Shown here: one piece after another, positions 5,191 through 20,247 of the stretch
Position numbering within the stretch: the first letter of the stretch is position 1
Layout of the letters: the number at the start of each line of letters is the position of its first letter
From: a virus
DNA length: 40,644 nucleotides
Reading direction: 5' to 3' (one strand)
UHGV virus genome: UHGV-0357162
The notes under the pieces: model-generated
What the model was told of the DNA's origin: nothing
Databases searched by the model: none
The model's input: only the letters and a program-made list of their open reading frames with translations
Translations under genes and position numbers: made by a program

Positions 5191-5224
5191 CCCCGACTGG
5201 GCCAACAGTCGGGGTTTTCGTTTT
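5191..5224 (-). terminator. rho-independent terminator downstream of the spike-like gene
   Basis: Stem CCCCGACTG / CAGTCGGGG with 6-nt loop, A-run on one side and TTTTCGTTTT on the other (bidirectional architecture). Confidence 0.55.
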
Positions 5225-5256
5225 ATGGGTAGTATTTAAAGTGAAATGAACCGGTA

Positions 5257-5970
5257 TTAACCCGGATTTGGTTTCTTCGACGTGATCGTACTGCCACCGC
5301 TTTGAACACCAGTCACATCGTGACTGTGGCTGCTGGCGCTCACGCCGTTGATAACTGCATCTTTCTCGACCTTAAGAGGACCAATCAGCGAAGCGGTTGT
5401 ATCCTTCATCTGGGCTTTGTCCTGGACGATCGGTCCGTTGAGGTGAATTTGACCGTTCATGAAGATATCTTCGGCCTCGAGGTAAACAGCTTTCGACTTT
5501 AGCCTGATTTCTTCCGGTGCCACCGTTACCGAGCTACTGCCGTCCTCTGTTTTGATGATCGCGCCATCCGGACCGTACAAAACGATTTTTTGCGGATCTT
5601 CGTCGGACCAGTCCTTGTTTGCCAGTGGCACGAAAAACAGGGGAGTGAGCGACATCGAGTAAGAGAGCGTCGCCATACCGGTTCCCAATCCGGACACACC
5701 GCGCAGGGATACATCAGCGGCAATTGTTACTCCTCGATCACCCGGCTGTATCGGGTAACGGATATACGGGAATGTGGCGACAGGGATTGTTATCTGCGGA
5801 AAGTTGATCCCCTCTGGCAACATATCAAACTGAACGGTCACTATCTGCCCACTGACATCGACAACATGGCAGGGCAATTCACGGCCTTTAAGCTCGGCTT
5901 GCTGGTTGCCAGAACTGGTCATCATCTCCGACAGCGTTCGGAGAAACGGTAATTTTTGAGCGTTTGACAT
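5257..5970 (-). CDS. baseplate central spike protein (gpV-like)
   Basis: 237 aa; C-terminus INGVSASSHSHDVTGVQSGGSTITSKKP resembles the His-rich apex of gpV/gp5-type spikes; ATGA overlap with the upstream gene. Confidence 0.55.
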   Translation of the reverse strand: MSNAQKLPFLRTLSEMMTSSGNQQAELKGRELPCHVVDVSGQIVTVQFDMLPEGINFPQITIPVATFPYIRYPIQPGDRGVTIAADVSLRGVSGLGTGMATLSYSMSLTPLFFVPLANKDWSDEDPQKIVLYGPDGAIIKTEDGSSSVTVAPEEIRLKSKAVYLEAEDIFMNGQIHLNGPIVQDKAQMKDTTASLIGPLKVEKDAVINGVSASSHSHDVTGVQSGGSTITSKKPNPG

Positions 5971-6965
5971 TACACCCTCGCCCAGTTCTCAGCATATGCC
6001 TCAAATACCGTCACCCAGGCATCGCCATCAGCTGTCAGATACGAACCAATGTGTCTGACCGATTTCACAAGAAATTTCCCGGTGAACGTGGTCGAATTTT
6101 TTGCGATAACGCTGGGTGCCGTTGTATTAGCCATCACAATCGACGCAGCGCCAGAATATAGCCCCTCCGGCAGTTTAACCACATCACCACATCTGATATC
6201 GCCTCTCATAGGACATTTGAAACTGACGGTAAACGGCGCTATCCATGTCGGCTGCCCGACCAGTTCATGGGCATGAATTGTTTTTGGCTCCCCCCACTTT
6301 GCTGACGCGTTATCGTAAATTCGTATTCTGTCGGAAAGAATACTGATGGCAATCCCGCTGTATTTCTCATCGCGCATCATTGCAATTGAAGCACTACGGA
6401 GGACCATAGCCAGCGAACCAATATCTTCGTAGGTTCCATTCCACGGTTCCGGCAAAACGAGGCTGTCGCTGACAGTACAATCGATCAACTTATTCGGAAA
6501 TGCCTTTTGCAACGCACGGAAGATTACATCACCAACCTTTTCCCCTTTAAGCCCCTCCCCCTCGATAGAGAACGGTTTACCATCATCTGTTTTGCGTACG
6601 GTTGGATTTATTACCAGGTTTAAGGTCTGGTTCGTGCCGATCCAGTTGGCATAGGCCAGATAAATTTCGCCATAAATAACCTCACCCTGTTGCTGTGGAT
6701 TTGCCAAAGGCAATCCCTCAACAAAGCCCGCTTTCATACGGACCAGACACCCCTGCAAACTCACGCTTTGCTTCAGCATGTCGATAGGCAAACCGTATAT
6801 TGTGAGCATCGTTCCTGAATTCACTACATCAAGACCCGCTACCTCTGTGGGGTAGTGATCAATTCTGGGCGGAGTTCGTGCAGCCTGGTAGAACCTGCAA
6901 GCCTTGTGTGGCGCGGGGTATGGTGATTTAGTGTGATTCTGGGCGGATTTGTGAGAAATGACCAA
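5970..6965 (-). CDS. baseplate hub-like protein, possibly 5'-truncated at the Mu-like prophage junction
   Basis: Track ORF starts at a TTG; the first ~28 codons (MVISHKSAQNHTKSPYPAPHKACRFY) look like translated non-coding DNA and overlap repeats 6863..6946; confident coding from about residue 30 (PRIDHYPTEVAGLDVV) or from M at 6809. Confidence 0.4.
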   Translation of the reverse strand: MVISHKSAQNHTKSPYPAPHKACRFYQAARTPPRIDHYPTEVAGLDVVNSGTMLTIYGLPIDMLKQSVSLQGCLVRMKAGFVEGLPLANPQQQGEVIYGEIYLAYANWIGTNQTLNLVINPTVRKTDDGKPFSIEGEGLKGEKVGDVIFRALQKAFPNKLIDCTVSDSLVLPEPWNGTYEDIGSLAMVLRSASIAMMRDEKYSGIAISILSDRIRIYDNASAKWGEPKTIHAHELVGQPTWIAPFTVSFKCPMRGDIRCGDVVKLPEGLYSGAASIVMANTTAPSVIAKNSTTFTGKFLVKSVRHIGSYLTADGDAWVTVFEAYAENWARV

Positions 6966-6996
6966 AAACGCTTTTTTTTGCGCTTTTTTCTGGGCG
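6863..6996 (+). repeat. three direct copies of a TTCTGGGCG(G) core with similar flanks; candidate transposase-binding end sites (attL-like) of the Mu-like prophage
   Basis: Copies at about 6863..6872, 6937..6946 and 6988..6996, the first two with GTGAT...TTCTGGGCGGAxTTxGTG context; located just outside the repressor gene where Mu L1-L3 sites would be. Confidence 0.3.
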
Positions 6997-7158
6997 CTTT
7001 TGATCTGGTTCTGCTACAAACTTAACGGGTTTTAAATGCTTTTAAAAAAGTGTTTTATCCTTACCCGTTTTCCTCAATTTGTTCTCATCTGTTGTGTTCG
7101 GTTTTGTTGTGGTTATTGCTGATTAGCTAACAGCACACGCCCCGCCAAAACGAGGCGC

Positions 7159-7806
7159 TTATGCTGATTTCTTGTTTACAGGCTTAGTTTCTTGCTCCGG
7201 TGTGACGGGAACGCGATCACCTGGTGTTCCAGCACAGAAAATGGCTTTGGCGCGGCGCAAAATCTCTTTGTCATTTTCCTCATCGCCAGCTAATGCCATG
7301 CAAACAGCGTCTTTAAGCGATTGCCTGATGTTCAGGCTTTGAATGGCCTTCCTTTGCTCCTCAAGTTCGCTATCGGCTTGCTTAGTTTGCCTGGTGGGTT
7401 GCTGTAGGCGTTCCAAGATTCCTTTAATGCCCATATCGCATATTGCACTTATCAGTTGTTCCTTATCTTCTGTGGACGCTCTTTTCAATAACTCGTTAAC
7501 TAGCTCGTTTGTAATATCGGGAGAAGGCTGCGCTGTTTGATTTGATAGAGAACCTTCTTTGGCGGTGGGTTCCTCACCATAAGCGAGCCAATTTAAGCTC
7601 ACTTGTTCTTTATCTGAGATAAGACAAGCTATTTTAAAAGAAGGCTCTGTTCCTTTATGAATGTAGTTGTTTAAGGTTGAAGGGGGGATTCCCCAATCAC
7701 TCGCAGCAGTTCTGACACTACGGTTACCTATCAGCTTTACTAAACGCTCTCTGAAACTTTCTTTTCCCTGGTCGACAAAAGAAAAAGCATCATCATTTCT
7801 AGTCAT
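7159..7806 (-). CDS. prophage repressor (Mu c position), HTH DNA-binding protein
   Basis: 215 aa, transcribed divergently from the ner-like gene; N-terminal helix-turn-helix-like region SVRTAASDWGIPPSTLNNYIHKG. Confidence 0.55.
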   Translation of the reverse strand: MTRNDDAFSFVDQGKESFRERLVKLIGNRSVRTAASDWGIPPSTLNNYIHKGTEPSFKIACLISDKEQVSLNWLAYGEEPTAKEGSLSNQTAQPSPDITNELVNELLKRASTEDKEQLISAICDMGIKGILERLQQPTRQTKQADSELEEQRKAIQSLNIRQSLKDAVCMALAGDEENDKEILRRAKAIFCAGTPGDRVPVTPEQETKPVNKKSA

Positions 7807-7939
7807 TTTTTCTTTCCTCTATAACTGATTGATTTTAATTGTAAAAACCATATAAAGACCAAAATCAAAAAGAAAATACAAAGAAAGAGCTATTTTTGCT
7901 TTACATGGGCTACATATGGATCAATACTTGTATCCGAAG

Positions 7940-7961
7940 GGATAACACGGCGGTGTTATCC
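7940..7961. promoter_or_regulatory. operator palindrome GGATAACAC-ggcg-GTGTTATCC, with additional GGATAAC half-sites at 7931..7935 and 7966..7972
   Basis: Perfect 9-4-9 inverted repeat in the repressor / ner-like intergenic region, immediately upstream of the ner-like start. Confidence 0.5.
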
Positions 7962-7988
7962 GCACGGATAACTTTTAAGGGTAACCTA

Positions 7989-8225
7989 ATGATGGTTAGA
8001 AATGAAGTAATGAACAAAGACTGGCACCGCGAGTACATCGTTGCCGCTGTGCACACCAAAGGTTTTACATTGCGTGAACTTTCTGAACGCGCTGGTCTAA
8101 AAAAAGACTCTTTAAAAAATGCACTGTATCGCTCATGCCCTAAATATGAACGCATCATAGCCGATGCTATTGGTGTGGAACCTGCGGAGATCTGGCCAAG
8201 CCGGTATGCCAGTAAGGCGGCGTAA
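7989..8225 (+). CDS. ner: Ner-like DNA-binding protein
   Basis: About 78 aa starting MMVRNEVMNKDWHREYIVAAVHTKGFTLRELSERAGL; position directly upstream of the transposase with TAATG overlap; the track N-terminal extension covers the operator. Confidence 0.7.
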   Translation: MMVRNEVMNKDWHREYIVAAVHTKGFTLRELSERAGLKKDSLKNALYRSCPKYERIIADAIGVEPAEIWPSRYASKAA

Positions 8226-10267
8226 TGTTTTATTCAGCCAATGAGCTGGCCGGTCTTCCTGGTTTGCCCGGTACAGTTCAGGGGGTGCGCTGGACGCTCA
8301 ATCGGATCACAGAGACGCACCCAGAATGGAAGCGCAAGCGCGAAGGCACCAAAGCATTCGAGTATCACATCGACTGCCTGCCCGCTGAAGCGCAGAAAGT
8401 TTTACGTAAGCGCCTGACTCATCAGGTCCTGGAAGATGCACAACTGCCCGCCGTAGTTGAGCAGAAAGCAGTTAAAAACGTCGCCGTTCGCGATGAACTG
8501 GAGGTGATGGTCAAATGCCCGGAGCTGGCATTACGCGAAGTCCAGTCACTGACCGACAAGCAAAAGGCCATCGCTGATGCGCGGATATTGCTGGCTACTG
8601 AAGTGCATAAGCTGCGCGAGTATGCCGGAATGACCAGGAAGGCCGCTTTAAAGCACATCGTTGATGGTGTGCGCATGGGGGCGTTACCTGACCGCATTAT
8701 CGAAGCAGCGAATACTGCAAATGCACGTCAGGGAAAGCGAACCGGTGTCAGCACCGGCAGCCTGGATAGCTGGTACTCCAGCTGGGTGATGGCGCGCGGT
8801 GATGCCAATCAGTTACTGGCGTTACTGGCTCCCGGTCATCATAAGGGAACACCGTGGGAGCAGGTCTGGTGGTTGAGCGATTTCTTTATGTTCTATCGCT
8901 CATGGAAGCGCCCGACTGTTGAATATGCGTATCGTGAGTTTTCAGCCTGGTGGCATGAAAAACACGCGAATGATGCGGGAATGCTGGCGGCACTGCCTTC
9001 AGTTCACGCAGTAAGACGGGTGTTAAGCAGCGTCCCGGTGATTGTTAAAGAGCGTTTCCGCTCCACCGGTTCAGCCTGGCGTTCGCTCAATCCCTTTGTG
9101 CGGCGCGACTGGACATCATTACCGGTTAATGCGGTATGGGTCGGGGATGGTCACTGTATGAAAATGACCGCGTTTAACCCCCTGACCGGCAATATTTTCC
9201 GGCCAGAAGTGACGCTGGTTATGGATGCGGGGCAACGCTTTGTTGTGGGCTGGTCACTGTCCCTGTCGGAGAACGTGATAGCCGTTGCTGATGCGTTACG
9301 TTACGGCATGGCGCAGCACGGGATACCGCTGATTTATTACTCCGATAACGGGGGCGGTGAAAAAAACCGGGTGCTTGATGCCGATATTACCGGGATTCTG
9401 CCCCGGCTGGGTGTGGAACATCACACGGGGATACCAGGTAACCCGCAGGGGCGCGGGGTGATTGAACGGGCAAACAAAGGAATACCCAAAGACGTGGCTC
9501 TGAGTTTCCAGACGTACTGCGCAAGGGATGCAGACAAGGAAACCGTAATGATGCAGCAACGGATTATGCAGTCAGCCATTAAGGCCACCCACAAAGGGAA
9601 AGAACTGACAAAACGGCAGGTTAAGGCGAGGGATGAAATCCCCACCTTTGAGCAACTGCTGGCAGCCATAGAGCTGGAGGTCAGACGCTATAACAACCGG
9701 CCACACAGCAGCCTACCCCGCAAAGAGGATGGCGAATATTACAGCCCGGCAGCGTATCGCCGGAAACTGATAAAAGAGCAGAATGTTGAAATTGATTTCC
9801 TGTCGCCGGAAGAACTGCATGAAATGTTCAGACCGGAAGTGACGCGCAAAACATTTCGCGGGGAAATTCAGTTATTCAACAATATTTATTACTCATATGA
9901 TCTGGCCGCAGAGCACGGGAATGAAGTCAGGGTCAGTTACGATATTCATGATGCAAACAGCGTCATTGTCCGGCGGGCTGATGGCTCTTATATCTGCGAT
10001 GCCATCTGGAACGGTAACAAGGTTGATGCCTTCGCTAAACCAGTTATCGAACAAAAACTGGAGAAACGCGTCAGGGGCCGCATTGCACGGGCTACGCAGA
10101 AAATCGAAGAGGCTAAACGCGAGCTTACCCCGGCTATTACGCAGAAGCCTGACTTTAATCTGGGATATGGACTGGAGCGCCCGGAGAAAAAGGAAAAAGA
10201 AGAACTTTATTTATTCGCATCTGAACGCGAGCGCAATTTAAAGAAAAACGGCACAAACAACCGTTAA
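8225..10267 (+). CDS. A: Mu A-type DDE transposase
   Basis: 680 aa; N-terminus ANELAGLPGLPGTVQGV resembles the MuA DNA-binding N-terminus; DDE-core-like VWVGDGHCMKM; followed by the MuB-like ATPase. Confidence 0.9.
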   Translation: MFYSANELAGLPGLPGTVQGVRWTLNRITETHPEWKRKREGTKAFEYHIDCLPAEAQKVLRKRLTHQVLEDAQLPAVVEQKAVKNVAVRDELEVMVKCPELALREVQSLTDKQKAIADARILLATEVHKLREYAGMTRKAALKHIVDGVRMGALPDRIIEAANTANARQGKRTGVSTGSLDSWYSSWVMARGDANQLLALLAPGHHKGTPWEQVWWLSDFFMFYRSWKRPTVEYAYREFSAWWHEKHANDAGMLAALPSVHAVRRVLSSVPVIVKERFRSTGSAWRSLNPFVRRDWTSLPVNAVWVGDGHCMKMTAFNPLTGNIFRPEVTLVMDAGQRFVVGWSLSLSENVIAVADALRYGMAQHGIPLIYYSDNGGGEKNRVLDADITGILPRLGVEHHTGIPGNPQGRGVIERANKGIPKDVALSFQTYCARDADKETVMMQQRIMQSAIKATHKGKELTKRQVKARDEIPTFEQLLAAIELEVRRYNNRPHSSLPRKEDGEYYSPAAYRRKLIKEQNVEIDFLSPEELHEMFRPEVTRKTFRGEIQLFNNIYYSYDLAAEHGNEVRVSYDIHDANSVIVRRADGSYICDAIWNGNKVDAFAKPVIEQKLEKRVRGRIARATQKIEEAKRELTPAITQKPDFNLGYGLERPEKKEKEELYLFASERERNLKKNGTNNR

Positions 10268-10285
10268 TTTAAAAGGTATTTAATT

Positions 10286-11179
10286 ATGAGTTTAATTACG
10301 CAATTAAATGACGTAATGGCCCGTCGCGGCTATACGCAGACCCACGTCGCCCGTGCTATTGGTCGTAGCAGCGCCGTTATCAACCAGTATTTACAGGGTA
10401 AATATCAGGGCGATATGGCTGATATTGAAGAACGCATTTCTGCCTTTGTGACCCGTGAGCGGGAAAAGGAAAACAGCCGCCGTATTAAAGCGAAATTTGT
10501 TGCCACCGGTATGGCTGCCAAAGGACTGGAAGTGCTGGCCTATGCTCACCTGGAATGTGAAATCTGCGTACTGTATGGCGCGGCAGGTCTTGGCAAAACA
10601 ATGATTCTGCGTGAATACGCCGCCAGAAACCGGGATGCGGTCCTGATTGAAGCTGACCCGGGCTATACAGCCAGAACACTGCTTGAGGAGCTGTGCCGCC
10701 AGCTGGGGGTAAAAGTTCGCGGCAATATCCACGAACTGATTGATGCATGTGTGCGAGAACTGCGTGATTCCGGTCGCCTGCTGATGGTGGACGAGGCTGA
10801 ACTGCTCCCCTATCGCGCACTGGAGGTTCTGCGCCGTCTGCATGACAAAGCGGGTATCGGGATTGTCCTGGCGGGTATGCCACGCCTTCTGATTAACCTC
10901 AAGGGACGTCGCGGTGAGTTCGCCCAGTTATACAGCCGTGTGGCGCTGGCGCTTAACCTGGGCGATACGCTGGCGCAGGAAGATTTTAACCAGATAGCCA
11001 CCGGGCTGATGCCGGAAGCAGCAGAACCGGAAATCAGCGAGGCGCTTTATACACGTTCGCTGGGTAATGCCCGCCGCCTGTTCAAACTGGCGCGTGGTGT
11101 GTACCGGATTTGTGATATCAGCGATGCACCGGTCAGTGTGCAGGCCATTGATAAATTCGCAGAAATGTTAATTCACTGA
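10286..11179 (+). CDS. B: Mu B-type AAA+ ATPase target DNA activator
   Basis: 297 aa; Walker A LYGAAGLGKT and Walker B LLMVDEAE; N-terminal HTH; immediately follows the transposase. Confidence 0.85.
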   Translation: MSLITQLNDVMARRGYTQTHVARAIGRSSAVINQYLQGKYQGDMADIEERISAFVTREREKENSRRIKAKFVATGMAAKGLEVLAYAHLECEICVLYGAAGLGKTMILREYAARNRDAVLIEADPGYTARTLLEELCRQLGVKVRGNIHELIDACVRELRDSGRLLMVDEAELLPYRALEVLRRLHDKAGIGIVLAGMPRLLINLKGRRGEFAQLYSRVALALNLGDTLAQEDFNQIATGLMPEAAEPEISEALYTRSLGNARRLFKLARGVYRICDISDAPVSVQAIDKFAEMLIH

Positions 11180-11418
11180 TGGAGAACAAGACGATGGACA
11201 AGCAGACCATTAACGCCGTCCGTTCCCGTGCCCGTGTGGCCATCCACACCACTGGTGGTCGTGTAACGGGACAACATCACCGTTTACCTGTGGTTTATGC
11301 CTGCCCGCCCGTGGGTGGTCCTGTATGGCCGGTAACGGAAATCATCCAGAGATTCAGCGGCCTGCGCCGCGTGGTGAAAACATCCTGTATCGACGGCTGC
11401 ACCGTCGTATGGCAATGA
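11179..11418 (+). CDS. hypothetical semi-early protein
   Basis: 79 aa ORF; ATG overlaps the MuB stop (TGATGG). Confidence 0.4.
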   Translation: MENKTMDKQTINAVRSRARVAIHTTGGRVTGQHHRLPVVYACPPVGGPVWPVTEIIQRFSGLRRVVKTSCIDGCTVVWQ

Positions 11419-11430
11419 GAGGAAATCAGA

Positions 11431-11646
11431 ATGGCGGTCAAGTTAGAAGTAATTATCTACACCGATGAAAACGGTACGCTTCGTGTCAGGAGCATGGGGG
11501 CTGTTGATAAAAAAGGATTTACGGATGAAGAGGTCGGGGTAAGACAACGGTTATGGGAGGTAATGAATCAAACGCTTAATAAAGAATTTAACGGCGTTGA
11601 TTTATTTTCTGTTGGCGTGGAACCCTGCGCACATAACACACATTAA
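11431..11646 (+). CDS. hypothetical semi-early protein
   Basis: 71 aa ORF with GAGG-type RBS. Confidence 0.4.
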   Translation: MAVKLEVIIYTDENGTLRVRSMGAVDKKGFTDEEVGVRQRLWEVMNQTLNKEFNGVDLFSVGVEPCAHNTH

Positions 11647-11675
11647 TCTGTAAATATCACTGAGGTAATTTAATT

Positions 11676-12320
11676 ATGACGACTGAAAATAAAGTTAAGC
11701 AATACACGAAAACTCAAGCGCCTGAAGGTTACTGGGTGGATGCCCGTGGCGTAATGACACCTGAAAGCCTTATCAAAGATATTGACCGCGACCGCGAGCA
11801 GCTGGTCGGTGAGATTGTGGAACTGGTGATTGCTGCCTCCGCCTCACTGCGTGAACTGAAACTACGTGCCTTTGGTGATATCCAGGCATTTATTGACCTG
11901 TCGGCGGAGAAATACGGCGCAGTGAAAGGTGGCAAAAAAGGCAATATCACGCTTTACAGCTTTGACGGGCGTTACAAGATTCAGCGCGCCATGCAGGACC
12001 GTATCGCGTTTGATGAACGCATTCAGACCGCGAAGTCGCTGATTGATGACTGTCTGGCTGACTGGACGGAAGGTGCGCGCCCTGAAATTAAAGCCATCAT
12101 TAGCGAGGCATTCAGCACGGACAAGGAAGGCAACATTAACACCGGGCGCGTTCTGGCCCTGCGTCGTCTGGAAATTGAGGACGAACGCTGGAATAACGCT
12201 ATGACGCTGATTGGTGAAGCCGTCCAGGTGATTGGCAGCAAGAGCTATATTCGTGTGTATGAGCGCGTCGGTGATTCTGATGAATACCGCGCAATCCCGC
12301 TTGATATTGCAGGGGTTTAA
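11676..12320 (+). CDS. Mu-like semi-early protein (DUF3164-like)
   Basis: 214 aa; size and position typical of DUF3164 proteins of Mu-like prophages; family assignment by recollection only. Confidence 0.45.
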   Translation: MTTENKVKQYTKTQAPEGYWVDARGVMTPESLIKDIDRDREQLVGEIVELVIAASASLRELKLRAFGDIQAFIDLSAEKYGAVKGGKKGNITLYSFDGRYKIQRAMQDRIAFDERIQTAKSLIDDCLADWTEGARPEIKAIISEAFSTDKEGNINTGRVLALRRLEIEDERWNNAMTLIGEAVQVIGSKSYIRVYERVGDSDEYRAIPLDIAGV

Positions 12321-12321
12321 C

Positions 12322-12555
12322 ATGCATCAGGATATCAAAGAGTACAGGGCCGGAAATAGTTGCGCGGCGTATTCGCTGGGCGCGTCCAGAGCAGAACAAC
12401 GCGGCGATTATGACGAGGCAGAAAAACTGTGGCGCAAGGCAGCGCAAAGCCCGTGTAGCACCCTGCGCCGCATCTGGGCTGAACATCGTGCGGAGTTCTG
12501 CGCTAACGCTCACCTGAAGGGCTGGAGGCCACGCCATGAATGCGAAGAACTTTAA
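12322..12555 (+). CDS. hypothetical small helical protein
   Basis: 77 aa from ATG 12322 (MHQDIKEYRAGNS...GDYDEAEKLWRKAAQS); the longer track ORF 12232..12555 overlaps the previous gene. Confidence 0.4.
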   Translation: MHQDIKEYRAGNSCAAYSLGASRAEQRGDYDEAEKLWRKAAQSPCSTLRRIWAEHRAEFCANAHLKGWRPRHECEEL

Positions 12556-12727
12556 TAAGCAGTATCCGGTAGGGACTCGCTTCATGCACACTGCACATCC
12601 GGCGTTGCGTGGTGGTCGTGTGGTGAAAACCGTTTCACCTGCCAGAGATTTTAAATGTGGTTGTGTGGTTGAAATTAATGTCGAGCCTTATTTCGTTAAA
12701 GTCGAAACACTGAAAGCAGCGCATTAA
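12536..12727 (+). CDS. hypothetical protein
   Basis: 63 aa ORF overlapping the upstream stop. Confidence 0.35.
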   Translation: MNAKNFNKQYPVGTRFMHTAHPALRGGRVVKTVSPARDFKCGCVVEINVEPYFVKVETLKAAH

Positions 12728-12756
12728 TTTAATTCAATTTTAATTGTTATTTAAAA

Positions 12757-12790
12757 CAGGCGTAAACCCGCCAGGGCTGGCTTACGCCTG
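12757..12790 (-). terminator. stem-loop terminator for the antisense gene 12831..13091
   Basis: CAGGCGTAA ... TTACGCCTG outer stem with inner GCCAG/CTGGC stem; T-rich run follows on the minus strand. Confidence 0.45.
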
Positions 12791-12830
12791 AATCAAGAGG
12801 ATTTATATATGAGAGATAAAATCTGGGGCT

Positions 12831-13091
12831 TTATTTATCCTCCGAAGGGGTTTGCAACGGTGTCTGCATCATTATCTCAATCTGTTTTAAATGAGAGAGA
12901 ACGTGTGAAGAGGCCACTGTCTCACCAATATCAGAAAGTCGTTTTACAGCCTGCTGTAACTGGTAAGAAAGAATAGATAAATCGAGAGAGCCCTGGATTT
13001 GCAGGGCTCTGACGGTAGCCAGCCACACGTAATGTGATGCCAGAACTTTTTCATCGGTTGGTGTGAAATCAGGAGTTTCGTTTTTATTCAT
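12831..13091 (-). CDS. hypothetical small protein encoded antisense to the early operon (moron)
   Basis: 86 aa from MNKNETPDF with AAGAGG RBS; AT-rich flanks; divergent from 13177..13893. Confidence 0.45.
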   Translation of the reverse strand: MNKNETPDFTPTDEKVLASHYVWLATVRALQIQGSLDLSILSYQLQQAVKRLSDIGETVASSHVLSHLKQIEIMMQTPLQTPSEDK

Positions 13092-13176
13092 AAAACCTCT
13101 TATTACTTCAACTGAAAAAGAAAACATCACATTACTTAATTTTCTTGCATGAAAAAATGATCGAAAACAACAGGTT

Positions 13177-13893
13177 ATGAACATGAAAGATAAATACATT
13201 GCCAAAATTAAAAAGCTGTTACGCCTTGCAAGAGGAACATCAAGCCCGGAAGAAGCCGCTAACGCTATTGCAAAAGTCCAGGCTTATATGCGCCAGCATG
13301 GCATCAGCGAAAACGACGCGGAATTGTTCGACATTCAGGAAGCTGCCAGCGCAGGTGCGCCGAGTGATGCCAGTACACCGCCGCGTTATATGCACATCCT
13401 GTGTGACCTGGTCTGTAAAGCCTTCGGTGTCGAGTGTTACATCTCCGGCGAATACCGGGCTTCTGGTTCACTCAAACGTTACGTGCGTTTTTATGGTCCT
13501 GACAGTCGCCCGGAAATTGCGGCATACGCGTTTGATGTGCTTTCCCGTCAGATGATGGCTGAACGCAAGAAATATCAGGATAAACACTGCAAACGTTGCG
13601 GCCCGTCCACGCGGGTGGCCCGTGGCGACCAGTTCTGCGAAGGCTGGGTCTTTGGTGCCCGTGATGTCATTGCGGTGTATGACGTCTCCCCGGAAGAAAA
13701 AAGCCGCCTTGAGCTTTACAGAAAGAACCTGCACAGCACTAAGGGACTGCGCGACGGGGATATGCGCACAGCTAAAGCGTGTCGGGGTGCAGAGTTTGCC
13801 GCTACTGCCGGTTTTATCGCCGGGAAAAACGCCAGGCTGCATCAGGGGGTTAATGGTCAGAGCAACAGACCGCTGGCACTGGGGAGGGGGTAA
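13177..13893 (+). CDS. DUF2786-like protein with Cys-rich zinc-finger-like region
   Basis: N-terminus IAKIKKLLRLARGTSSPEEAANAIAKVQAYM matches the DUF2786 pattern; CKRCGP ... C motif; 238 aa. Confidence 0.5.
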   Translation: MNMKDKYIAKIKKLLRLARGTSSPEEAANAIAKVQAYMRQHGISENDAELFDIQEAASAGAPSDASTPPRYMHILCDLVCKAFGVECYISGEYRASGSLKRYVRFYGPDSRPEIAAYAFDVLSRQMMAERKKYQDKHCKRCGPSTRVARGDQFCEGWVFGARDVIAVYDVSPEEKSRLELYRKNLHSTKGLRDGDMRTAKACRGAEFAATAGFIAGKNARLHQGVNGQSNRPLALGRG

Positions 13894-13895
13894 CG

Positions 13896-14123
13896 ATGGC
13901 TTTTAAACTTCTCAGTGTTACCGAAGCAATATACCAGCCTCCCGGAGAACGCCACGAATACAGGATGAATGACGGTAGCGCGGCGGTTGAGTTCCCTAAA
14001 TATCCGGGGGATTCCCGGTGGCGGTTCTATGACAGTGCGGGACGCCGGATTATTAAAAGAACCGTGCACAACGCCATGAAAGCCGCTGTAGAACGTCACA
14101 AAAGGAGGTTTAACTGCAAATGA
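13896..14123 (+). CDS. hypothetical protein
   Basis: 75 aa ORF in operon context. Confidence 0.35.
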   Translation: MAFKLLSVTEAIYQPPGERHEYRMNDGSAAVEFPKYPGDSRWRFYDSAGRRIIKRTVHNAMKAAVERHKRRFNCK

Positions 14124-14344
14124 ATATTGAATTTTATGACTACGGAGTCACCGCAAAAATTATTGTTACCTGCTGGTTCTGGGAGTTCCGCCGCTATTGC
14201 CGGGTTGTGGATGCGGCGCTGTTTGTGGCACCTGAAGTGCGCCATCAGAGTGGCGGTGGCCTTTTAATGAAAACCGTCATCACCGGTAAAACGGTTCCGA
14301 TGTTACGGGCGTTTAAAGTGGCAAAACAGGAGGCGGCGCAGTGA
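14120..14344 (+). CDS. hypothetical protein
   Basis: 74 aa ORF overlapping the upstream stop. Confidence 0.35.
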   Translation: MNIEFYDYGVTAKIIVTCWFWEFRRYCRVVDAALFVAPEVRHQSGGGLLMKTVITGKTVPMLRAFKVAKQEAAQ

Positions 14345-14529
14345 ACCAGCAAACCAGAATAAGCGAGAAGAGCCTGACCAGACTGATTGCCGATGCGGAC
14401 AAGGTGCTGGAGCGGAACACCCCCGTTGCCGATGAGGAATGGTGGCAGGATTTCCGGGCCGCAATGCTGGAACTTCAGGAACGCCGCAGGGCTGGTAGCG
14501 CAGAGCCGATAGTAAATACAGGGGAATGA
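14341..14529 (+). CDS. hypothetical protein
   Basis: 62 aa ORF overlapping the upstream stop. Confidence 0.35.
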   Translation: MNQQTRISEKSLTRLIADADKVLERNTPVADEEWWQDFRAAMLELQERRRAGSAEPIVNTGE

Positions 14530-14533
14530 AACG

Positions 14534-14710
14534 ATGAAAAACCGTAAAGCAAAACGACTTCTTTTACAGCGACCTGTGCGTGTAGTGGAGCTGGTTATCA
14601 GCAACCATAAGATAGCGGTACTCCATCCATTTGGTCAGGTGGCTTTTGCCGCAAAGCGTAAGCCTACTGCGTCACAGAACAGGCGGAATAAAGGGTACGC
14701 AGTACGATGA
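14534..14710 (+). CDS. small basic protein, tandem copy 1 (58 aa)
   Basis: MKNRKAKRLLLQRPVRVVELVISNHKIAVLHPFGQVAFAAKRKPTASQNRRNKGYAVR; AGGGGAA RBS; first 22 nt near-identical to copy 2. Confidence 0.3.
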   Translation: MKNRKAKRLLLQRPVRVVELVISNHKIAVLHPFGQVAFAAKRKPTASQNRRNKGYAVR

Positions 14711-14883
14711 AAAACCGTAAGGCAAAAATTCTGTTAGCTCGCAGAAACGGCTTTGATGTCTGGCGATGGTTGAGGATTAGTAACAGACGAGTGAGATTGA
14801 CGGGGTGTTGCGGGGTGATGGGGCACAGTTGTTGCAAAAAGCCCAGCGCGGCGCAAAACCGCAGGAAAAATCACGGTATGTAA
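14707..14883 (+). CDS. small basic Cys-rich protein, tandem copy 2 (58 aa)
   Basis: MKNRKAKILLARRNGFDVWRWLRISNRRVRLTGCCGVMGHSCCKKPSAAQNRRKNHGM; ATGA overlap with copy 1. Confidence 0.3.
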   Translation: MKNRKAKILLARRNGFDVWRWLRISNRRVRLTGCCGVMGHSCCKKPSAAQNRRKNHGM

Positions 14884-14895
14884 AGGAGGTACCAG

Positions 14896-15306
14896 GTGAA
14901 GAAAATGATTTTTGTGGCGGCATTGCTAACCATTACCCAACATACGCAGGCTTCAGCAGTTATTGTGGCATCTGCCGCTGCGACCACGGCTGCTGTAGCT
15001 GCTGCAAACTCTGCGAATATCGCAAGCCAACAGGAGCGGGATGCTGCTAACGCATCAGCCAGTGCTCTCCCGATTTCTGTTAAGGGCAGTAAGCAACATC
15101 TGGGGTTCATAACGTGCGGTAAGCGTTCTTATGAAGCTGTAGGCTCACTGGGATGTACGGTATATGGCGACAGTGAGAGCAGAGAAATTCCATGGAAAAC
15201 GTGGCCCGGATACGTTCTTGGCTCGAAGCTCCCGGCCAGTTATGAGGTAAACGCCGTGTCGTTTGATCACTATAACGGCGTGGCAACTGTCTATTTCACA
15301 TACTGA
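14896..15306 (+). CDS. secreted protein with signal peptide (moron-like)
   Basis: GTG start after AAGGAGG RBS; MKKMIFVAALLTITQHTQASA signal peptide; Ala/Thr-rich linker; two Cys pairs. Confidence 0.5.
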   Translation: MKKMIFVAALLTITQHTQASAVIVASAAATTAAVAAANSANIASQQERDAANASASALPISVKGSKQHLGFITCGKRSYEAVGSLGCTVYGDSESREIPWKTWPGYVLGSKLPASYEVNAVSFDHYNGVATVYFTY

Positions 15307-15411
15307 GGCCCGGCATGAAATTTTCTGAATCACGGAGCAACAACACGATGAAAGCCATCACCGTAACTCGACGTTCCTGATTTCGCGGGTTGTTTAAACA
15401 GTAATCAAATG

Positions 15412-15457
15412 CAGACCAAAACATGTGTTTTGGTCTGCCAAAAGTGATGTTTTGGTC
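15412..15457. promoter_or_regulatory. operator-like array: perfect 26-bp palindrome CAGACCAAAACATGTGTTTTGGTCTG plus a third TGTTTTGGTC half-site 11 bp downstream
   Basis: Perfect dyad 15412..15437 and direct repeat 15448..15457, spaced about two helical turns; overlaps the start of the next ORF. Confidence 0.4.
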
Positions 15458-15739
15458 ATTATGAAGATTGAACAAATCGGAATGGCAGCTTTCAGGCAAC
15501 AGGCTGAAAGCGGTGGCGTGGATGAGTTCGTCGTGCAGCGGTTCGGTGGTGTGTATCACCTCTTCGCTGTGAATCGCCACGCCGGGGTGTCCTATTTTCT
15601 ACAGGAACGCCGTGGCGATTACAAGACGTGGCTGTCTCTTGATCGTGCCGCCACGTTCCTGTCAGGAATTGGCGTTTCACGTTTTACCGTGCGTTTTGAG
15701 GATAACAAACATGCTGAAAAAGATGATCGGAGCCATTAA
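15425..15739 (+). CDS. hypothetical protein (start uncertain: GTG 15425 or ATG 15461)
   Basis: Track ORF; the 5' end overlaps the palindrome, so ATG 15461 (MKIEQIG) may be the real start. Confidence 0.35.
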   Translation: MFWSAKSDVLVIMKIEQIGMAAFRQQAESGGVDEFVVQRFGGVYHLFAVNRHAGVSYFLQERRGDYKTWLSLDRAATFLSGIGVSRFTVRFEDNKHAEKDDRSH

Positions 15740-16106
15740 AGCCGGTCAGGCGTATCTGGGGTGGGATGATGTCCTTTATCGCCAGACGCTGGCCCGCCTG
15801 ACCGGTAAAACCAGCACCACACGCTGCAACCTCGATGAACTGCGCATCATCCGGGAATACATGCACGAACAGGGATTTCCGCGCAAGGCCCCCGCCGGTA
15901 AAGGTCGCCGCCCTCGTGTTGCAATGAGCAGAAAATCGGTATTATCCAAAATTGAAGCGTTGCTGGCTGATGCCGGTCGTTCCTGGGCGTATGCAGAAGG
16001 ACTGGCATCTCACATGTATAAGCAACATGTGATCGAATGGCTGACGGATGAACAGCTTTTTGGGGTGATGGTGGCGCTGGTTAAAGATTCAAGGAGACGT
16101 AAATGA
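15711..16106 (+). CDS. gemA: GemA-like (Mu gp16 family, DUF1018) protein
   Basis: Start MLKKMIGAIKAGQAYLGWDDVLYRQTLARLTGKTS matches the conserved N-terminal pattern of GemA/gp16-family proteins; the longer track ORF starts at 15612. Confidence 0.55.
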   Translation: MLKKMIGAIKAGQAYLGWDDVLYRQTLARLTGKTSTTRCNLDELRIIREYMHEQGFPRKAPAGKGRRPRVAMSRKSVLSKIEALLADAGRSWAYAEGLASHMYKQHVIEWLTDEQLFGVMVALVKDSRRRK

Positions 16107-16441
16107 AAAAACTGTTATTACTTATTCTGGCTTTATGTTTTACAGGAATATCCCATGCTTCTGATTCTGAGGAAGATTTGATCAAAAAAACATTACAGGG
16201 CGATTATCAGGCACAACGTAATCTGGCTTATTCATACATGAATGGCTGGGATGATATTTCAAAGGATACCATCAGAGGATGCGCTCTCAGGAAGGTTATT
16301 CTCTTAACACAAGCCCAAGCTGACATTGGCGATTATGGAAATGAAGCCATAGATTGCCGAAAAGTGCATCCAACAGATAACCAGAAAGTATGGGAGTATG
16401 TCAGAGGATACCTGGTGTTGATAAACGAGAATAAAAAATAA
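16103..16441 (+). CDS. secreted small protein with signal peptide (moron)
   Basis: MKKLLLLILALCFTGISHA signal peptide; AT-rich; followed by its own terminator. Confidence 0.5.
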   Translation: MKKLLLLILALCFTGISHASDSEEDLIKKTLQGDYQAQRNLAYSYMNGWDDISKDTIRGCALRKVILLTQAQADIGDYGNEAIDCRKVHPTDNQKVWEYVRGYLVLINENKK

Positions 16442-16453
16442 TATGAACAAAAA

Positions 16454-16477
16454 CCTTCGCAAACGCGGAGGTTTTTT
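16454..16477 (+). terminator. rho-independent terminator after the secreted-protein moron
   Basis: CCTTCGC-aaac-GCGGAGG stem (one G-U pair) followed by TTTTTT. Confidence 0.5.
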
Positions 16478-16483
16478 ATGGTC

Positions 16484-16511
16484 TGTACAGGCGATCATGT
16501 ATGGCTATAAT
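16484..16511 (+). promoter_or_regulatory. candidate sigma70 promoter for the mor-like gene
   Basis: TGTACA, 16-nt spacer, TATAAT, about 30 nt upstream of the ATG at 16541. Confidence 0.3.
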
Positions 16512-16540
16512 AACAGTAAGTTATTACCGGAGACGCCATC

Positions 16541-17008
16541 ATGCAGACCTTCAGTGAAACAGATCTTCGCGATGCGCAGGCACTGCTGCCCGATTCCGTG
16601 CAGCAACTGATTAGCGTGATTGGCTTCCCCGCCCTGACCCGGTTAATCCGTTCTTTTGGTGGCGTGACGTTAAGCGGTAAAACCGGCGCACACGCCGAAC
16701 GCACCGGCGGCGTCCATGCCCTGTTACATGATGTTCTGACCGAAGACGAAATCAACAAACTGATCCGCTTTCTTGGCGGTGCTCCGTTTTACATTCCCCG
16801 TTGCGATCATGCGTTACGTGCCCTGCGTAACACCCGTTTTATGGCTGATTTACAGCAGCATGTAAAAGACGGATGCTCACACCGGCAGGCGCTGGCACTG
16901 CTCTGTCCCCGTTACGGCATTTCAGACCGGTACGCATGGCAGCTGATACACCGACGACAAAAACAGACTTCGCTGAAAAGCCCCACCCAGGTGGGGCTTT
17001 TTGATTAA
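16541..17008 (+). CDS. mor: Mor/C-family transcriptional activator
   Basis: 155 aa; position after the GemA-like gene; C-terminal HTH-like region (RQALALLCPRYGISDRYAWQLIHRRQ) as in the Mu Mor/C family. Confidence 0.6.
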   Translation: MQTFSETDLRDAQALLPDSVQQLISVIGFPALTRLIRSFGGVTLSGKTGAHAERTGGVHALLHDVLTEDEINKLIRFLGGAPFYIPRCDHALRALRNTRFMADLQQHVKDGCSHRQALALLCPRYGISDRYAWQLIHRRQKQTSLKSPTQVGLFD

Positions 17009-17034
17009 TGGGCCTCAGAAAAAAGGAGACACTT

Positions 17035-17313
17035 ATGACCAACTATATGGCACTTGGCGAGTATACGGCCTACTCAGAGCAGGCCCGGGATGCTGCCGGA
17101 CGTCGCTTTGCTTATATGAAAAATTTGGCCAGTCAGTTAAACCGAATGGCCGAACAACCGGATATGGTTGTTCAGGAAGAAGCGTTGCAGTGTGCCATTG
17201 CTGACATCATCGCCAGCGAAAACGAGATGCGCGCAGCGATGGAAAAGGCGAACGCCTCTGCTCCGCTTTGTAATAAACCTCTTATTACGCCGGATTCTCT
17301 TTCCCGCTTCTGA
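17035..17313 (+). CDS. hypothetical protein
   Basis: ATG at 17035 (MTNYMALGEY) preceded by AAGGAG; the track ORF starts at 17008. Confidence 0.4.
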   Translation: MTNYMALGEYTAYSEQARDAAGRRFAYMKNLASQLNRMAEQPDMVVQEEALQCAIADIIASENEMRAAMEKANASAPLCNKPLITPDSLSRF

Positions 17314-17335
17314 TTTATCACCCCGCCGCCGCGGG

Positions 17336-17360
17336 GTGCTGAACTCCCCCAGCAGTACCC
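17336..17360 (+). promoter_or_regulatory. conserved late-promoter box, copy 1 (GTGCTGAACTCCCCCAGCAGTACCC), upstream of the lysis cassette
   Basis: One of three copies of GTGCTGAAC(A/T)CCC(T/C)CA found upstream of late operons. Confidence 0.45.
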
Positions 17361-17495
17361 ACCACACCAGACCGTTTACCCTGTCCACTCAGACCACAAG
17401 GTACCTTAAGGGATAGCGCCCTGCAAAAGGCTTTTGTGCCTTTGACAGGGTGTTATTTACGGGCCGTCAGTGGCTCAGATTTACAGGAGAAACTC

Positions 17496-17888
17496 ATGTC
17501 TGAACCCTTATCAGGCGGCGGAGCTGTGGCAGTCACCATCGGTGGTGCCAGTGTGTTTGGCCTTCTCACCAATACCGATTTCGGGGTCGTGGTGGGCGCG
17601 TTTGCCGGGGCGCTTTTTGTTGTCACGCAGCAGAAAGAAATCCCGGTATGGCGAATGGCCATCCACCTGCTCGTCGCGTTTGTGGTTGGCGTTCTGGGGG
17701 CTGGTGTGGCTGCGTCACTGATGCAGTGGCTGACCCACTACAACGACAAACCGCTCGATGCATTGTGTGCGGTCGGTGTCTCTGCTTTATCCATCAAGAT
17801 ACTGACTTTTCTTTATCAACAGGAAATTTCATCGCTGTTCGGCCTGTTTTCCAGACTGCGCGGCGGAGGGGGTGGAAATGGAAAGTAG
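17496..17888 (+). CDS. membrane protein, holin-like (lysis cassette)
   Basis: ATG after AGGAGA RBS; about 130 aa with three hydrophobic segments and a Gly-rich charged C-terminus; directly upstream of the endolysin. Confidence 0.45.
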   Translation: MSEPLSGGGAVAVTIGGASVFGLLTNTDFGVVVGAFAGALFVVTQQKEIPVWRMAIHLLVAFVVGVLGAGVAASLMQWLTHYNDKPLDALCAVGVSALSIKILTFLYQQEISSLFGLFSRLRGGGGGNGK

Positions 17889-18156
17889 CCTTGCCGGTAT
17901 CGTGAACGTCTGGCTGTGTCTCGCCATTGTGCTGGGGTTGTTTGTGTATCGCCGCCACGGTGCGGCGCATAAACCGATGATTACCTGGTTGGCGTACTGG
18001 CTGATGCTCGGCTACATCATCATCCCGTTCCGCTGGCTGTCCGGTACATACACGCACTCCAGCTGGCTGGTTGTGGCGCTGAATCTGGTTTTCTGTGCGC
18101 TTATCGTGTGGGCGCACGGGAATTTGTCAAAAATCCTTTCGTTATTGCGGAGGTGA
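17878..18156 (+). CDS. membrane protein (holin/antiholin-like)
   Basis: 92 aa, strongly hydrophobic with several Trp; GGAGG RBS; overlaps the end of the previous gene. Confidence 0.4.
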   Translation: MESSLAGIVNVWLCLAIVLGLFVYRRHGAAHKPMITWLAYWLMLGYIIIPFRWLSGTYTHSSWLVVALNLVFCALIVWAHGNLSKILSLLRR

Positions 18157-18158
18157 AT

Positions 18159-18536: not shown

Positions 18537-18549
18537 TTCGGGACGGGTT

Positions 18550-18732
18550 ATGAACAGAAGTCACTGGACCCACAGAACGCCACGTAAAGCCGCGCGCTGT
18601 GTTCTGGCCCTGTTTCTGATGATGTTGCTTCCGGTGGGATGCACAGACATTAACAGAGCGGGCCAGCTGTTTGACGCGGCGGCGCAGGTCTGCCGGATTA
18701 TTGACGGTATCCGGCAGTGTTCGCAGAACTGA
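18550..18732 (+). CDS. putative lipoprotein (o-spanin-like)
   Basis: 60 aa; hydrophobic leader ending in lipobox-like PVGC; immediately after the endolysin. Confidence 0.35.
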   Translation: MNRSHWTHRTPRKAARCVLALFLMMLLPVGCTDINRAGQLFDAAAQVCRIIDGIRQCSQN

Positions 18733-20246: not shown

Positions 20247-20247
20247 C

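What the first reader, a model, noticed from the sequence alone, without database searches (positions are those of the whole stretch)
5970..7158. Mu-like prophage left end abuts and may truncate the hub gene of a second tail module; three direct repeats mark the junction
The repressor gene ends at 7159 and the minus-strand hub-like ORF of the left module begins within 200 bp. The first ~28 codons of that ORF look like translated non-coding DNA and contain direct repeats with a TTCTGGGCGG core (about 6863, 6937, 6988) in similar GTGAT...TTxGTG context, reminiscent of the three MuA-binding sites L1-L3 at the Mu left end. This suggests the Mu-like element inserted into, or directly upstream of, the baseplate hub gene of another prophage or tailocin-like cluster, leaving a 5'-truncated hub gene.
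Basis: inference. Interest (0 to 1): 0.65.

Follow-up and report, generated by a model that had tools for sequence, protein, structure and literature searches.

The report
Mu-like prophage splits a baseplate gene
A transposing (Mu-like) virus has jumped into the baseplate-hub gene of another dormant virus in an E. coli genome, and the three short repeats at the junction are its predicted transposase docking sites: a clean but ordinary example of a well-known process.

Summary
DNA derived from a Rac-SA53-like myovirus prophage ends at window 6845. A 37,688-bp Mu-like transposable prophage begins at 6846 (5'-TGTGGGG...). This boundary was fixed in two ways: against an unoccupied locus (E. coli STEC711, 1 mismatch in 6,845 bp), and against ten further copies of the same prophage family inserted at unrelated E. 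coli loci. The intact hub gene encodes 335 aa, and the window keeps only codons 45-335. ORF 5970..6965 is a chimera whose first 40 codons are Mu left-end DNA. On the source metagenome scaffold the right end (...CGCGAAGTTACA) lies 3,889 bp past the window end. It is followed by a second copy of CCTC and then the missing 132 nt of the hub gene. The three repeats (core TTCTGGGC at 6863, 6937 and 6988) sit 18, 92 and 143 nt from the terminus. The right end carries three more copies: two inverted relative to the left end at 18 and 40 nt, and a third flipped. This is the L1-L3/R1-R3 layout of phage Mu with a different sequence. The target duplication is 4 bp, not Mu's 5. Transposase binding is inferred, not shown. 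This is an ordinary event of a known kind, so interest is low.

The parts
5970..6845 (-). 3' fragment of the baseplate-hub gene of the host (Rac-SA53-like) prophage: codons 45-335 plus the stop codon
   Evidence: Window 1..6845 matches the unoccupied STEC711 locus with 1 mismatch. The translation is identical to residues 45-335 of the intact 335-aa protein. It matches PHROG 196 'baseplate hub' at E 1.1e-36 for the fragment and 6.7e-45 for the intact protein.
5970..6965 (-). Chimeric ORF (an artefact of mechanical ORF listing): codons 1-40 are translated Mu-like left-end DNA, and codons 41-331 are hub gene
   Evidence: No gene with this product is on record. The gene callers on the source contig used the ATG at 6809 instead.
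6842..6845 (.). Left copy of the 4-bp target-site duplication, CCTC
   Evidence: STEC711 positions L001 7643-7646 are present once there and occur on both flanks of the insertion here.
6846..40644 (+). Mu-like transposable prophage, left 33.8 kb. It starts with 5'-TGT at 6846 and continues 3,889 bp beyond the window, to window-equivalent 44533 (...TTACA-3'). Total length is 37,688 bp.
   Evidence: Ten further insertions of the same family at unrelated E. coli loci all begin with TGTGGGGTAG. The right end was read on the source scaffold.
6863..6870 (+). L1: core TTCTGGGC of the terminal predicted transposase-binding site, 18-25 nt from the terminus
   Evidence: It has the same 18-nt offset as R1 at the right end.
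6937..6944 (+). L2: core of the second predicted transposase-binding site, 92-99 nt from the terminus
   Evidence: The core is conserved in 8 of 9 aligned relatives; the ninth carries a variant core.
6988..6995 (+). L3: core of the third predicted transposase-binding site, 143-150 nt from the terminus
7159..7806 (-). Repressor gene of the Mu-like prophage. It is a CI-type helix-turn-helix protein, not a homologue of the Mu c repressor.
   Evidence: Pfam Phage_CI_repr at E 2.6e-6 and PHROG 3037 at E 6e-58. It shows no similarity to Mu c.
7989..8225 (+). Ner-like early regulator (78 aa)
   Evidence: Pfam HTH_35 at E 2.4e-25 and PHROG 769. The 78-aa gene call is on the source contig and in RefSeq relatives.
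8225..10267 (+). Mu-type DDE transposase (680 aa)
   Evidence: Pfam Mu-transpos_C, HTH_Tnp_Mu_1 and a weak rve match, plus PHROG 310 at E 4e-195. It is 21% identical to MuA.
10286..11179 (+). MuB-like AAA+ ATPase (297 aa)
   Evidence: Pfam AAA_22 and a weak TniB match on the source contig. RefSeq relatives annotate it as 'AAA family ATPase'.

Best explanation
Window 5970-7158 holds the left junction of a complete 37.7-kb Mu-like transposable prophage. The prophage inserted by transposition between codons 44 and 45 of the baseplate-hub gene (the rac56 homologue) of a resident Rac-SA53-like myovirus prophage.

Shown: the hub gene is split. Its 3' part (5970..6845) abuts the Mu-like left terminus at 6846. 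Its 5' 132 nt lie beyond the right terminus, outside the window. A 4-bp target sequence, CCTC, is duplicated at the two junctions.

Inferred: the three direct repeats (core TTCTGGGC at 6863, 6937, 6988) are the left-end binding sites for the element's own transposase (8225..10267), equivalent to L1-L3 of Mu. Together with three matching sites at the right end they would let transposase subunits pair the two ends. The transposase would then nick at the terminal CA-3' and join the ends to target DNA cut with a 4-nt stagger.

Consequences: ORF 5970..6965 is not a gene, because its first 40 codons are left-end DNA read in frame. The host prophage has lost an essential baseplate gene and should no longer make tails.
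For: Left boundary:
- Homology to unoccupied E. coli loci runs to 6845 and stops there.
- Window 1..6845 matches STEC711 with 1 mismatch, and the 5,616 bp after the right end match it at 100%. The two flanks overlap by exactly 4 bp in STEC711.
- Relatives of the Mu-like part, at 85-99.8% identity, sit in eutC, scpC, yfcC-pta, melR-melA, mhpT, a PAAR gene and other loci. All start at TGTGGGGTAG.

Right junction:
- It reads ...CGCGAAGTTACA|CCTC|CACGTCAAATTC on the same scaffold, exactly as predicted beforehand.

Protein:
- The intact protein is 335 aa. The window copy diverges N-terminal to residue 45.

Repeats:
- Six of the seven TTCTGGGC copies in the prophage lie at the ends. L1, L2 and L3 are at 18, 92 and 143 nt. 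R1 and R2 are at 18 and 40 nt and inverted relative to the left end. R3 is at 68 nt in the opposite orientation.
- Mu itself, read directly, has L1, L2 and L3 at 22, 127 and 167 nt. Its R1 and R2 are at 22 and 44 nt (the same 22-bp spacing), with R3 flipped. That MuA binds three sites at each end is stated in PMC3145075.

Family:
- Mu-type transposase domains, a MuB-like ATPase, a Ner-like gene, Mor, and Mu gp45-48-type baseplate genes are all present.
Against: No binding, cleavage or transposition was tested, so the role of the repeats is inferred from position, orientation and analogy alone.

The core is not strictly invariant. Some relatives carry TTCTGGAC or TTCTGGAT at all three left sites.

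The site sequence bears no resemblance to the MuA consensus, and the transposase is only 21% identical to MuA.

The 'hub' label rests on one PHROG family and on gene order. Pfam and a PDB sequence search gave nothing.

The source is a metagenome scaffold, not an isolate genome.
Confidence: 0.93

Rival explanations
1. The three repeats are real but are not transposase-binding sites. They might instead bind the repressor or a host protein such as IHF or HU, or be a fortuitous feature of a T-rich non-coding end. The insertion itself would still be as described.
For: No binding data exist. Position 7 of the core varies (G or A) in relatives, and one inserted element combines A-type left sites with G-type right sites. 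In Markov simulations of the left end alone, some 8-mer reaches 3 copies in 1.5% of runs.
Against: The same core recurs three times at the right end and only once elsewhere in 37.7 kb. L1 and R1 sit at the identical 18-nt distance from the termini, in inverted orientation. R1-R2 spacing is 22 bp, as in Mu, and R3 is flipped, as in Mu. The cores are conserved across relatives whose neighbouring spacer diverges.
Confidence: 0.08
2. The junction is an assembly chimera of a metagenome scaffold that wrongly joined a Mu-like prophage to a Rac-like prophage.
For: The source is a metagenome scaffold (ERZ28665698 scaffold_208). None of 5,426 complete E. coli genomes has this junction, and neither junction string was found in the species-representative genomes.
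Against: Both junctions are on one 75-kb scaffold. The break falls exactly at the family's conserved termini. The two flanks rejoin into the unoccupied sequence with a precise 4-bp overlap, the same duplication length as in ten other insertions of this family. Mis-assembly would not produce that.
Confidence: 0.02
3. The hub-like ORF is intact, starting at 6965 or at the ATG at 6809, and the Mu-like end lies wholly within 6966..7158.
For: An open frame does run from 6965, and gene callers on the source contig called a 279-aa product from 6809.
Against: The intact homologue is 335 aa and aligns from its residue 1 to PHROG 196. Residues 1-44 are absent from the window, and the 40 codons upstream of the breakpoint are unrelated to it. 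Positions 6846..6965 are shared with Mu-like prophages inserted at other loci.
Confidence: 0.01

Closest known systems
[quoted passage not shown] 1984, as cited in PMC3145075)
   Same: - 5'-TG...CA-3' termini.
- One terminal site about 20 nt from the end, then a spacer, then two more direct sites at the left end.
- Two sites 22 bp apart plus a flipped third site at the right end.
- The repressor gene ends about 310-340 bp from the left terminus, followed by divergent ner, A and B genes.
   Different: - The site sequence is unrelated: a TTCTGGGC core here against ...CGAAA(A/G) in Mu.
- L1-L2 and L2-L3 spacings are 74 and 51 nt here against 105 and 40 nt in Mu.
- The transposase is only 21% identical to MuA.
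- The repressor is CI-type and unrelated to Mu c.
- The target duplication is 4 bp instead of 5 (Mu's 5 bp from PMC3145075 and PMC8705779).
The Mu-like prophage of EPEC E2348/69 inserted in eutC, and its relatives in other complete E. coli genomes (e.g. TUM1881, Z1324SEC0014)
   Same: It is the same prophage family: 98.5-99.8% identity over the left 1.45 kb, identical termini, identical end repeats and a 4-bp duplication.
   Different: The insertion site differs: here it is the hub gene of another prophage. The tail-fibre region is also different, being of the C5/STEC313 type rather than the E2348/69 type.
Sp18-like Mu-like phages inserted into Stx prophages of STEC CC119 (PMC10132054; GenBank LC727881)
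   Same: This is also a Mu-like prophage inside another prophage: 6 of 10 such phages sat in mobile elements. A 4-bp duplication is annotated in the record. The end architecture is the same, with three repeats per end.
   Different: The transposase is only 44% identical. The repeat core is TTTGATAC(C) rather than TTCTGGGC, and one annotated terminus reads TA rather than TG.
Burkholderia phage KS10, predicted TnpA-binding repeats at the ends (PMC2628397)
   Same: Transposase-binding sites were predicted from direct repeats near each end, inverted between the ends.
   Different: KS10 has two sites per end, a different transposase clade, and no flanking duplication found.

Membership tests
Mu-type transposable prophage (Mu-like phage in the broad sense) | DDE transposase with Mu-transposase domains | tested here: met
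   Pfam Mu-transpos_C at 1.4e-16 and HTH_Tnp_Mu_1 at 1.1e-10, with rve below its cut-off. PHROG 310 transposase at 4e-195.
Mu-type transposable prophage (Mu-like phage in the broad sense) | MuB-like ATPase gene directly downstream of the transposase, and a divergent repressor / Ner-like pair upstream | tested here: met
   10286..11179 is an AAA ATPase. 7159..7806 (minus strand) is the repressor and 7989..8225 (plus strand) is HTH_35 / PHROG 769.
Mu-type transposable prophage (Mu-like phage in the broad sense) | 5'-TG...CA-3' termini | tested here: met
   The termini read TGTGGGG...GAAGTTACA in the source and in ten other insertions.
Mu-type transposable prophage (Mu-like phage in the broad sense) | Insertion at many unrelated sites, each flanked by a short target duplication | tested here: met
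   Eleven insertions at eleven loci each have a perfect 4-bp duplication. The unoccupied site for the window's insertion was confirmed.
Mu-type transposable prophage (Mu-like phage in the broad sense) | Several transposase-binding repeats at both ends, inverted between the ends | tested here: inconclusive
   The sequence layout is met: three cores per end, with matching offsets and orientation. Binding by the transposase cannot be tested with these tools.
Mu-type transposable prophage (Mu-like phage in the broad sense) | Genome of 36-39 kb with Mu-type late genes (Mor, gpT head, gp45-48 baseplate) | tested here: met
   The length is 37,688 bp. Pfam Mor, GemA, Phage_Mu_Gp45, GP46, Baseplate_J and Phage_Mu_Gp48 are recorded on the source contig.
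Mu-type transposable prophage (Mu-like phage in the broad sense) | Packaged DNA carries variable host sequence at both ends | not testable with these tools
   This needs virion DNA sequencing.
Phage Mu in the strict sense (genus Muvirus) | Close homology of the transposase to MuA, and of the repressor to Mu c | tested here: not met
   The transposase is 21% identical to MuA. The repressor shows no similarity to Mu c. No deposited phage exceeds 49% transposase identity.
Phage Mu in the strict sense (genus Muvirus) | MuA-type end-site sequence and a 5-bp target duplication | tested here: not met
   The cores are TTCTGGGC against Mu's CGAAA(A/G). The duplication is 4 bp.
Baseplate hub protein (PHROG 196) | Profile match over the whole protein | tested here: met
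   The intact STEC711 protein matches at 6.7e-45 over residues 1-334. The window fragment matches at 1.1e-36, starting at profile position 124 instead of 86.
Baseplate hub protein (PHROG 196) | Position in the tail module, between the tape-measure gene and the baseplate/spike and Baseplate_J genes | tested here: met
   The gene order is: sheath..., 691-aa tape-measure-like / transglycosylase, 222 aa, 88 aa, the 335-aa hub, 237-aa 'baseplate protein'..., Baseplate_J, tail fibres.
Baseplate hub protein (PHROG 196) | Hub fold (gp27 / gpD / Mu gp44-like) | not tested
   No Pfam family and no PDB sequence match were found. No structure was predicted.

The most novel reading that the evidence does not exclude
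This widespread E. coli Mu-like lineage may be a functionally distinct, uncharacterised Mu-type transposition system. Its transposase is only 21% identical to MuA. Its end sites have a TTCTGGGC core. Its target stagger is 4 nt. Its repressor is CI-type and does not share the transposase's N-terminal DNA-binding domain. The Mu scheme, in which repressor and transposase compete for the same operator/enhancer, would therefore not apply, and control of transposition would work differently.
Probability: 0.25. Interest if true: 0.35.

Novelty: already known. Interest (0 to 1): 0.15.

Why it matters
This is mainly an annotation result.
- ORF 5970..6965 should not be called a gene.
- The hub gene should be annotated as split by a mobile element.
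- The Mu-like prophage boundaries can be set to the base: 6846, and 3,889 bp beyond the window end.

Biologically it shows one prophage inactivating another. The Rac-SA53-like phage loses an essential baseplate gene, in a recent event, since the flanks differ from an unoccupied copy by 1 base in 12.4 kb. This pattern has already been reported for Mu-like phages in STEC. The defined end sites and the 4-bp duplication give a practical recipe for delimiting this prophage family in E. coli genomes.

Tried and rejected
- Species-representative genomes: I scanned them for the predicted right junction and for the left junction and found nothing. The source is a metagenome scaffold instead.
- Chimeric 331-aa ORF: a look-up as a called gene found nothing on record. 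The 279-aa version from the ATG at 6809 was found and led to the source scaffold.
- 5-bp duplication as in Mu: rejected. With the conserved terminal A assigned to the element (canonical CA-3'), all 11 insertions have a perfect 4-bp repeat. In 4 of 11 the fifth base does not match.
- Specificity switch: I considered that the G-to-A change at core position 7, seen in all three left sites of strain C5 and all three right sites of GCA_039778795, marks a co-evolving transposase specificity switch. This is weakened by Z1323CEC0011, an inserted element with A-type left sites and G-type right sites.
- Strain C5: its right end could not be used because an ISEc12 sits there.
- Other searches: the PDB sequence search with the intact hub gave only noise. 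Pfam gave nothing for the hub. Rfam gave nothing in 5900..8300. The promoter and terminator scans were at shuffle level.
- Literature: the SuMu and KS10 papers gave no duplication length for relatives.
Full report
**Observation**

A repressor-like gene occupies 7159..7806 on the minus strand (Pfam Phage_CI_repr, PHROG 3037). A minus-strand ORF runs 5970..6965 with a TTG start. Three direct repeats share a core: TTCTGGGCGG at 6863 and 6937, and TTCTGGGCGC at 6988.

With up to one mismatch the 10-mer has 11 matches in the window against 3.0 expected, and no shuffle reaches 11. On the left end alone the signal is only moderate. In first-order Markov simulations of the 313-bp stretch, some 8-mer reaches three copies in 1.5% of runs.

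One note on coordinates: the ruler of get_sequence labels the first base of each line. The T of TGTGGGG is therefore 6846, as a script confirmed.

**Left boundary**

A search of 5,426 complete E. coli genomes with 5200..8300 found 125 genomes that match only up to window 6845, several at 100% identity. None carries the junction. A separate search with 6846..8300 found 81 genomes, and all the listed hits start at query base 1. These copies lie in unrelated places: eutC in E2348/69, scpC in TUM1881, next to yfcC, in a PAAR gene, in RHS genes and in other prophages.

An alignment shows the window following the unoccupied STEC711 locus up to ...GCTACCTC. It then switches to TGTGGGGTAGTGATC..., which is shared with the E2348/69 and TUM1881 insertions. 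The Mu-like element therefore begins at 6846.

**Right end and the missing gene fragment**

The window ends inside the element's tail-fibre genes. The truncated hub product read from the ATG at 6809 is on record on a 75,020-bp metagenome scaffold, ERZ28665698 XUQI22-1_SAMN14445711_METAG-scaffold_208. A tail-fibre protein from the window's end retrieved the continuation of that same scaffold.

There the element ends ...GCCCAGAAAAAAACGCGAAGTTACA. It is followed by CCTC and then CACGTCAAATTCAACATG..., which is the STEC711 sequence immediately upstream of the breakpoint. I had written this junction string down as a prediction before finding it.

By BLAST, window 1..6845 matches STEC711 L001 802..7646 with 1 mismatch. 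The 5,616 bp after the right end match L001 7643..13258 at 100%. The two flanks overlap by exactly the 4 bp CCTC. The element is 37,688 bp, from window 6846 to window-equivalent 44533.

**The ORF is a chimera**

The intact STEC711 gene encodes 335 aa, beginning MRYYRLEIINPKTGKPP...HVEFDV|EVAGLDV... The window ORF reads LVISHKSAQNH...RIDHYPT|EVAGLDV.... Codons 1-40 of the ORF (6846..6965) are therefore Mu left-end DNA, codons 41-331 are hub residues 45-335, and hub residues 1-44 are missing.

The intact protein matches PHROG 196 'baseplate hub' over residues 1-334 (E 6.7e-45). The fragment matches only from profile position 124 instead of 86. Gene order agrees with a hub: sheath, a tape-measure-like transglycosylase, two small genes, the 335-aa gene, a 'baseplate protein', Baseplate_J, then tail fibres. 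The module is 94% identical to phage Rac-SA53, where the gene is rac56. It therefore belongs to a full myovirus-type prophage rather than a tailocin.

**The repeats**

Across the whole 37.7-kb element the 8-mer TTCTGGGC occurs seven times on both strands, where about one is expected. Six of the seven lie at the ends. Measured from each terminus and read inward:

| Site | This element (core position, nt) | Phage Mu (core position, nt) |
|---|---|---|
| L1 | 18-25 | 22-27 |
| L2 | 92-99 | 127-132 |
| L3 | 143-150 | 167-172 |
| R1 | 18-25 | 22-27 |
| R2 | 40-47 | 44-49 |
| R3 | 68-75, opposite orientation | 56-61, opposite orientation |

The Mu values I read directly from the Mu genome. The R1-R2 spacing is 22 bp in both. 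That MuA binds three sites at each end is stated in PMC3145075.

The layout is thus the same, with equal offsets of L1 and R1, and only the sequence differs. The cores are conserved in relatives whose spacers diverge. This is strong positional evidence that the repeats are the transposase-binding sites. Binding itself was not and could not be tested here.

**Target duplication**

The table lists the eleven insertions (the window's plus ten others), with the conserved terminal ...ACA assigned to the element.

| Insertion | 4-bp duplication |
|---|---|
| window | CCTC |
| E2348/69 | CACT |
| TUM1881 | TATC |
| STEC313 | AAAG |
| Z1324SEC0014 | TACG |
| 160-11H1 | GACA |
| tcmA_3 | GAGA |
| GPEC349-628 | TTTG |
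| STEC346 | AGTA |
| CFS3292 | ATTC |
| Z1323CEC0011 | AATC |

Every pair is a perfect 4-bp repeat. In four of the eleven the fifth base does not match. The duplication is therefore 4 bp, not Mu's 5 bp (PMC3145075) or B3's 6 bp (PMC8705779). This is not new: GenBank LC727881 annotates a 4-bp 'duplication due to insertion' for an Sp18-like Mu-like phage, which has a similar three-repeat end design with a different core.

**What family it belongs to**

The element has a Mu-type DDE transposase, a MuB-like ATPase, a Ner-like gene, Mor, GemA and Mu gp45-48-type baseplate genes. It is far from Mu itself. The transposase is 21% identical to MuA. The best deposited phage reaches 49%. The repressor is CI-type and unrelated to Mu c. 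It is a member of the broad Mu-like class and not of Muvirus.

**Mechanism**

Shown:
- the exact termini;
- the split gene;
- the duplicated CCTC;
- the six-site layout;
- the presence of the transposase and ATPase genes.

Inferred from the Mu paradigm:
- transposase subunits bind L1-L3 and R1-R3 and synapse the ends;
- they nick at the terminal CA-3' and join to target strands cut 4 nt apart;
- repair or replication then generates the duplication.

The flanks are almost identical to an unoccupied copy, so the event is recent. The host prophage should be tail-defective.

**Rivals**

- An intact hub gene with Mu ends inside 6966..7158 is excluded.
- An assembly chimera is very unlikely. The break falls at the conserved termini and the flanks rejoin with the family's characteristic 4-bp overlap.
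- The repeats could serve another protein. This cannot be excluded without experiments, but it fits poorly with their symmetry at both ends.
- I considered that a concerted G-to-A change of the core in some relatives marks a specificity switch. An inserted element with mixed end types weakens this idea.

**Verdict**

The phenomenon is ordinary. Mu-like phages are known to land inside other prophages in E. coli, with 6 of 10 in mobile elements in STEC CC119 (PMC10132054). This prophage family is already present, though annotated only generically, in dozens of complete genomes. The value lies in precise annotation rather than discovery.

Noticed in passing
window 6842-6845 and the right junction on L014 15189-15192; relatives L002/L006, L003/L012, L010/L008, L011/L009, L017-L021, L027: This Mu-like lineage makes a 4-bp target duplication in all 11 insertions examined, not the 5 bp of Mu or the 6 bp of B3. 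A 4-bp duplication is also annotated for an Sp18-like Mu-like phage in GenBank LC727881.
   Followed up: yes
left flanks of the 11 insertions (e.g. window 6841): The base just outside the duplicated 4 bp on the left side is A in 7 of 11 insertions. This may be a weak target preference, or chance. No matching bias was apparent on the right side in the five insertions checked by eye.
   Followed up: partly
L005 3001-3160, L027 277-450 (left ends); L015 15073-15201 (right end): Some relatives carry TTCTGGAC, TTCTGGAT or ATCTGGAC at all three sites of an end, a same-position G-to-A change. Z1323CEC0011 combines A-type left sites with G-type right sites and still has a 4-bp duplication. It also has a different early region (192-aa repressor, 691-aa transposase).
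   Followed up: partly
window 7159-7806 (minus strand) and 8225-10267 (plus strand): The repressor is a CI-type helix-turn-helix protein with no similarity to Mu c, while the transposase keeps the N-terminal 'Mu DNA-binding' domain (PF02316) that MuA shares with Mu c. The Mu scheme of repressor and transposase competing for the same operator/enhancer may therefore not hold here.
   Followed up: no
L006 4461-4553 (E2348/69 right end), also L012, L017-L019, L021: E2348/69-type relatives end with a 31-codon open frame (MFIGYVRASTNDQDTDLQRNALNCAGYELIF*). From my own knowledge it looks like the N-terminus of a Gin/Hin-type invertase. It lies next to oppositely oriented tail-fibre cassettes. The window's type has no such remnant and instead carries a 1,040-aa tail fibre plus a DUF4376 gene (L014 11391-15106).
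   Followed up: no
window 2451-3197 (minus strand) and 3535-4095 (plus strand): The host prophage's baseplate module is interrupted by cargo-like genes. In the near-identical STEC711 locus they are annotated as a lysozyme inhibitor LprI family protein and an AntA/AntB antirepressor.
   Followed up: no
L007 10290-12592 (strain C5) and L009 10056-10976 (Z1324SEC0014): IS elements (ISEc12, IS903B) sit at or just outside the right ends of Mu-like prophages in two relatives. In C5 the normal right-end sequence could not be found.
   Followed up: partly
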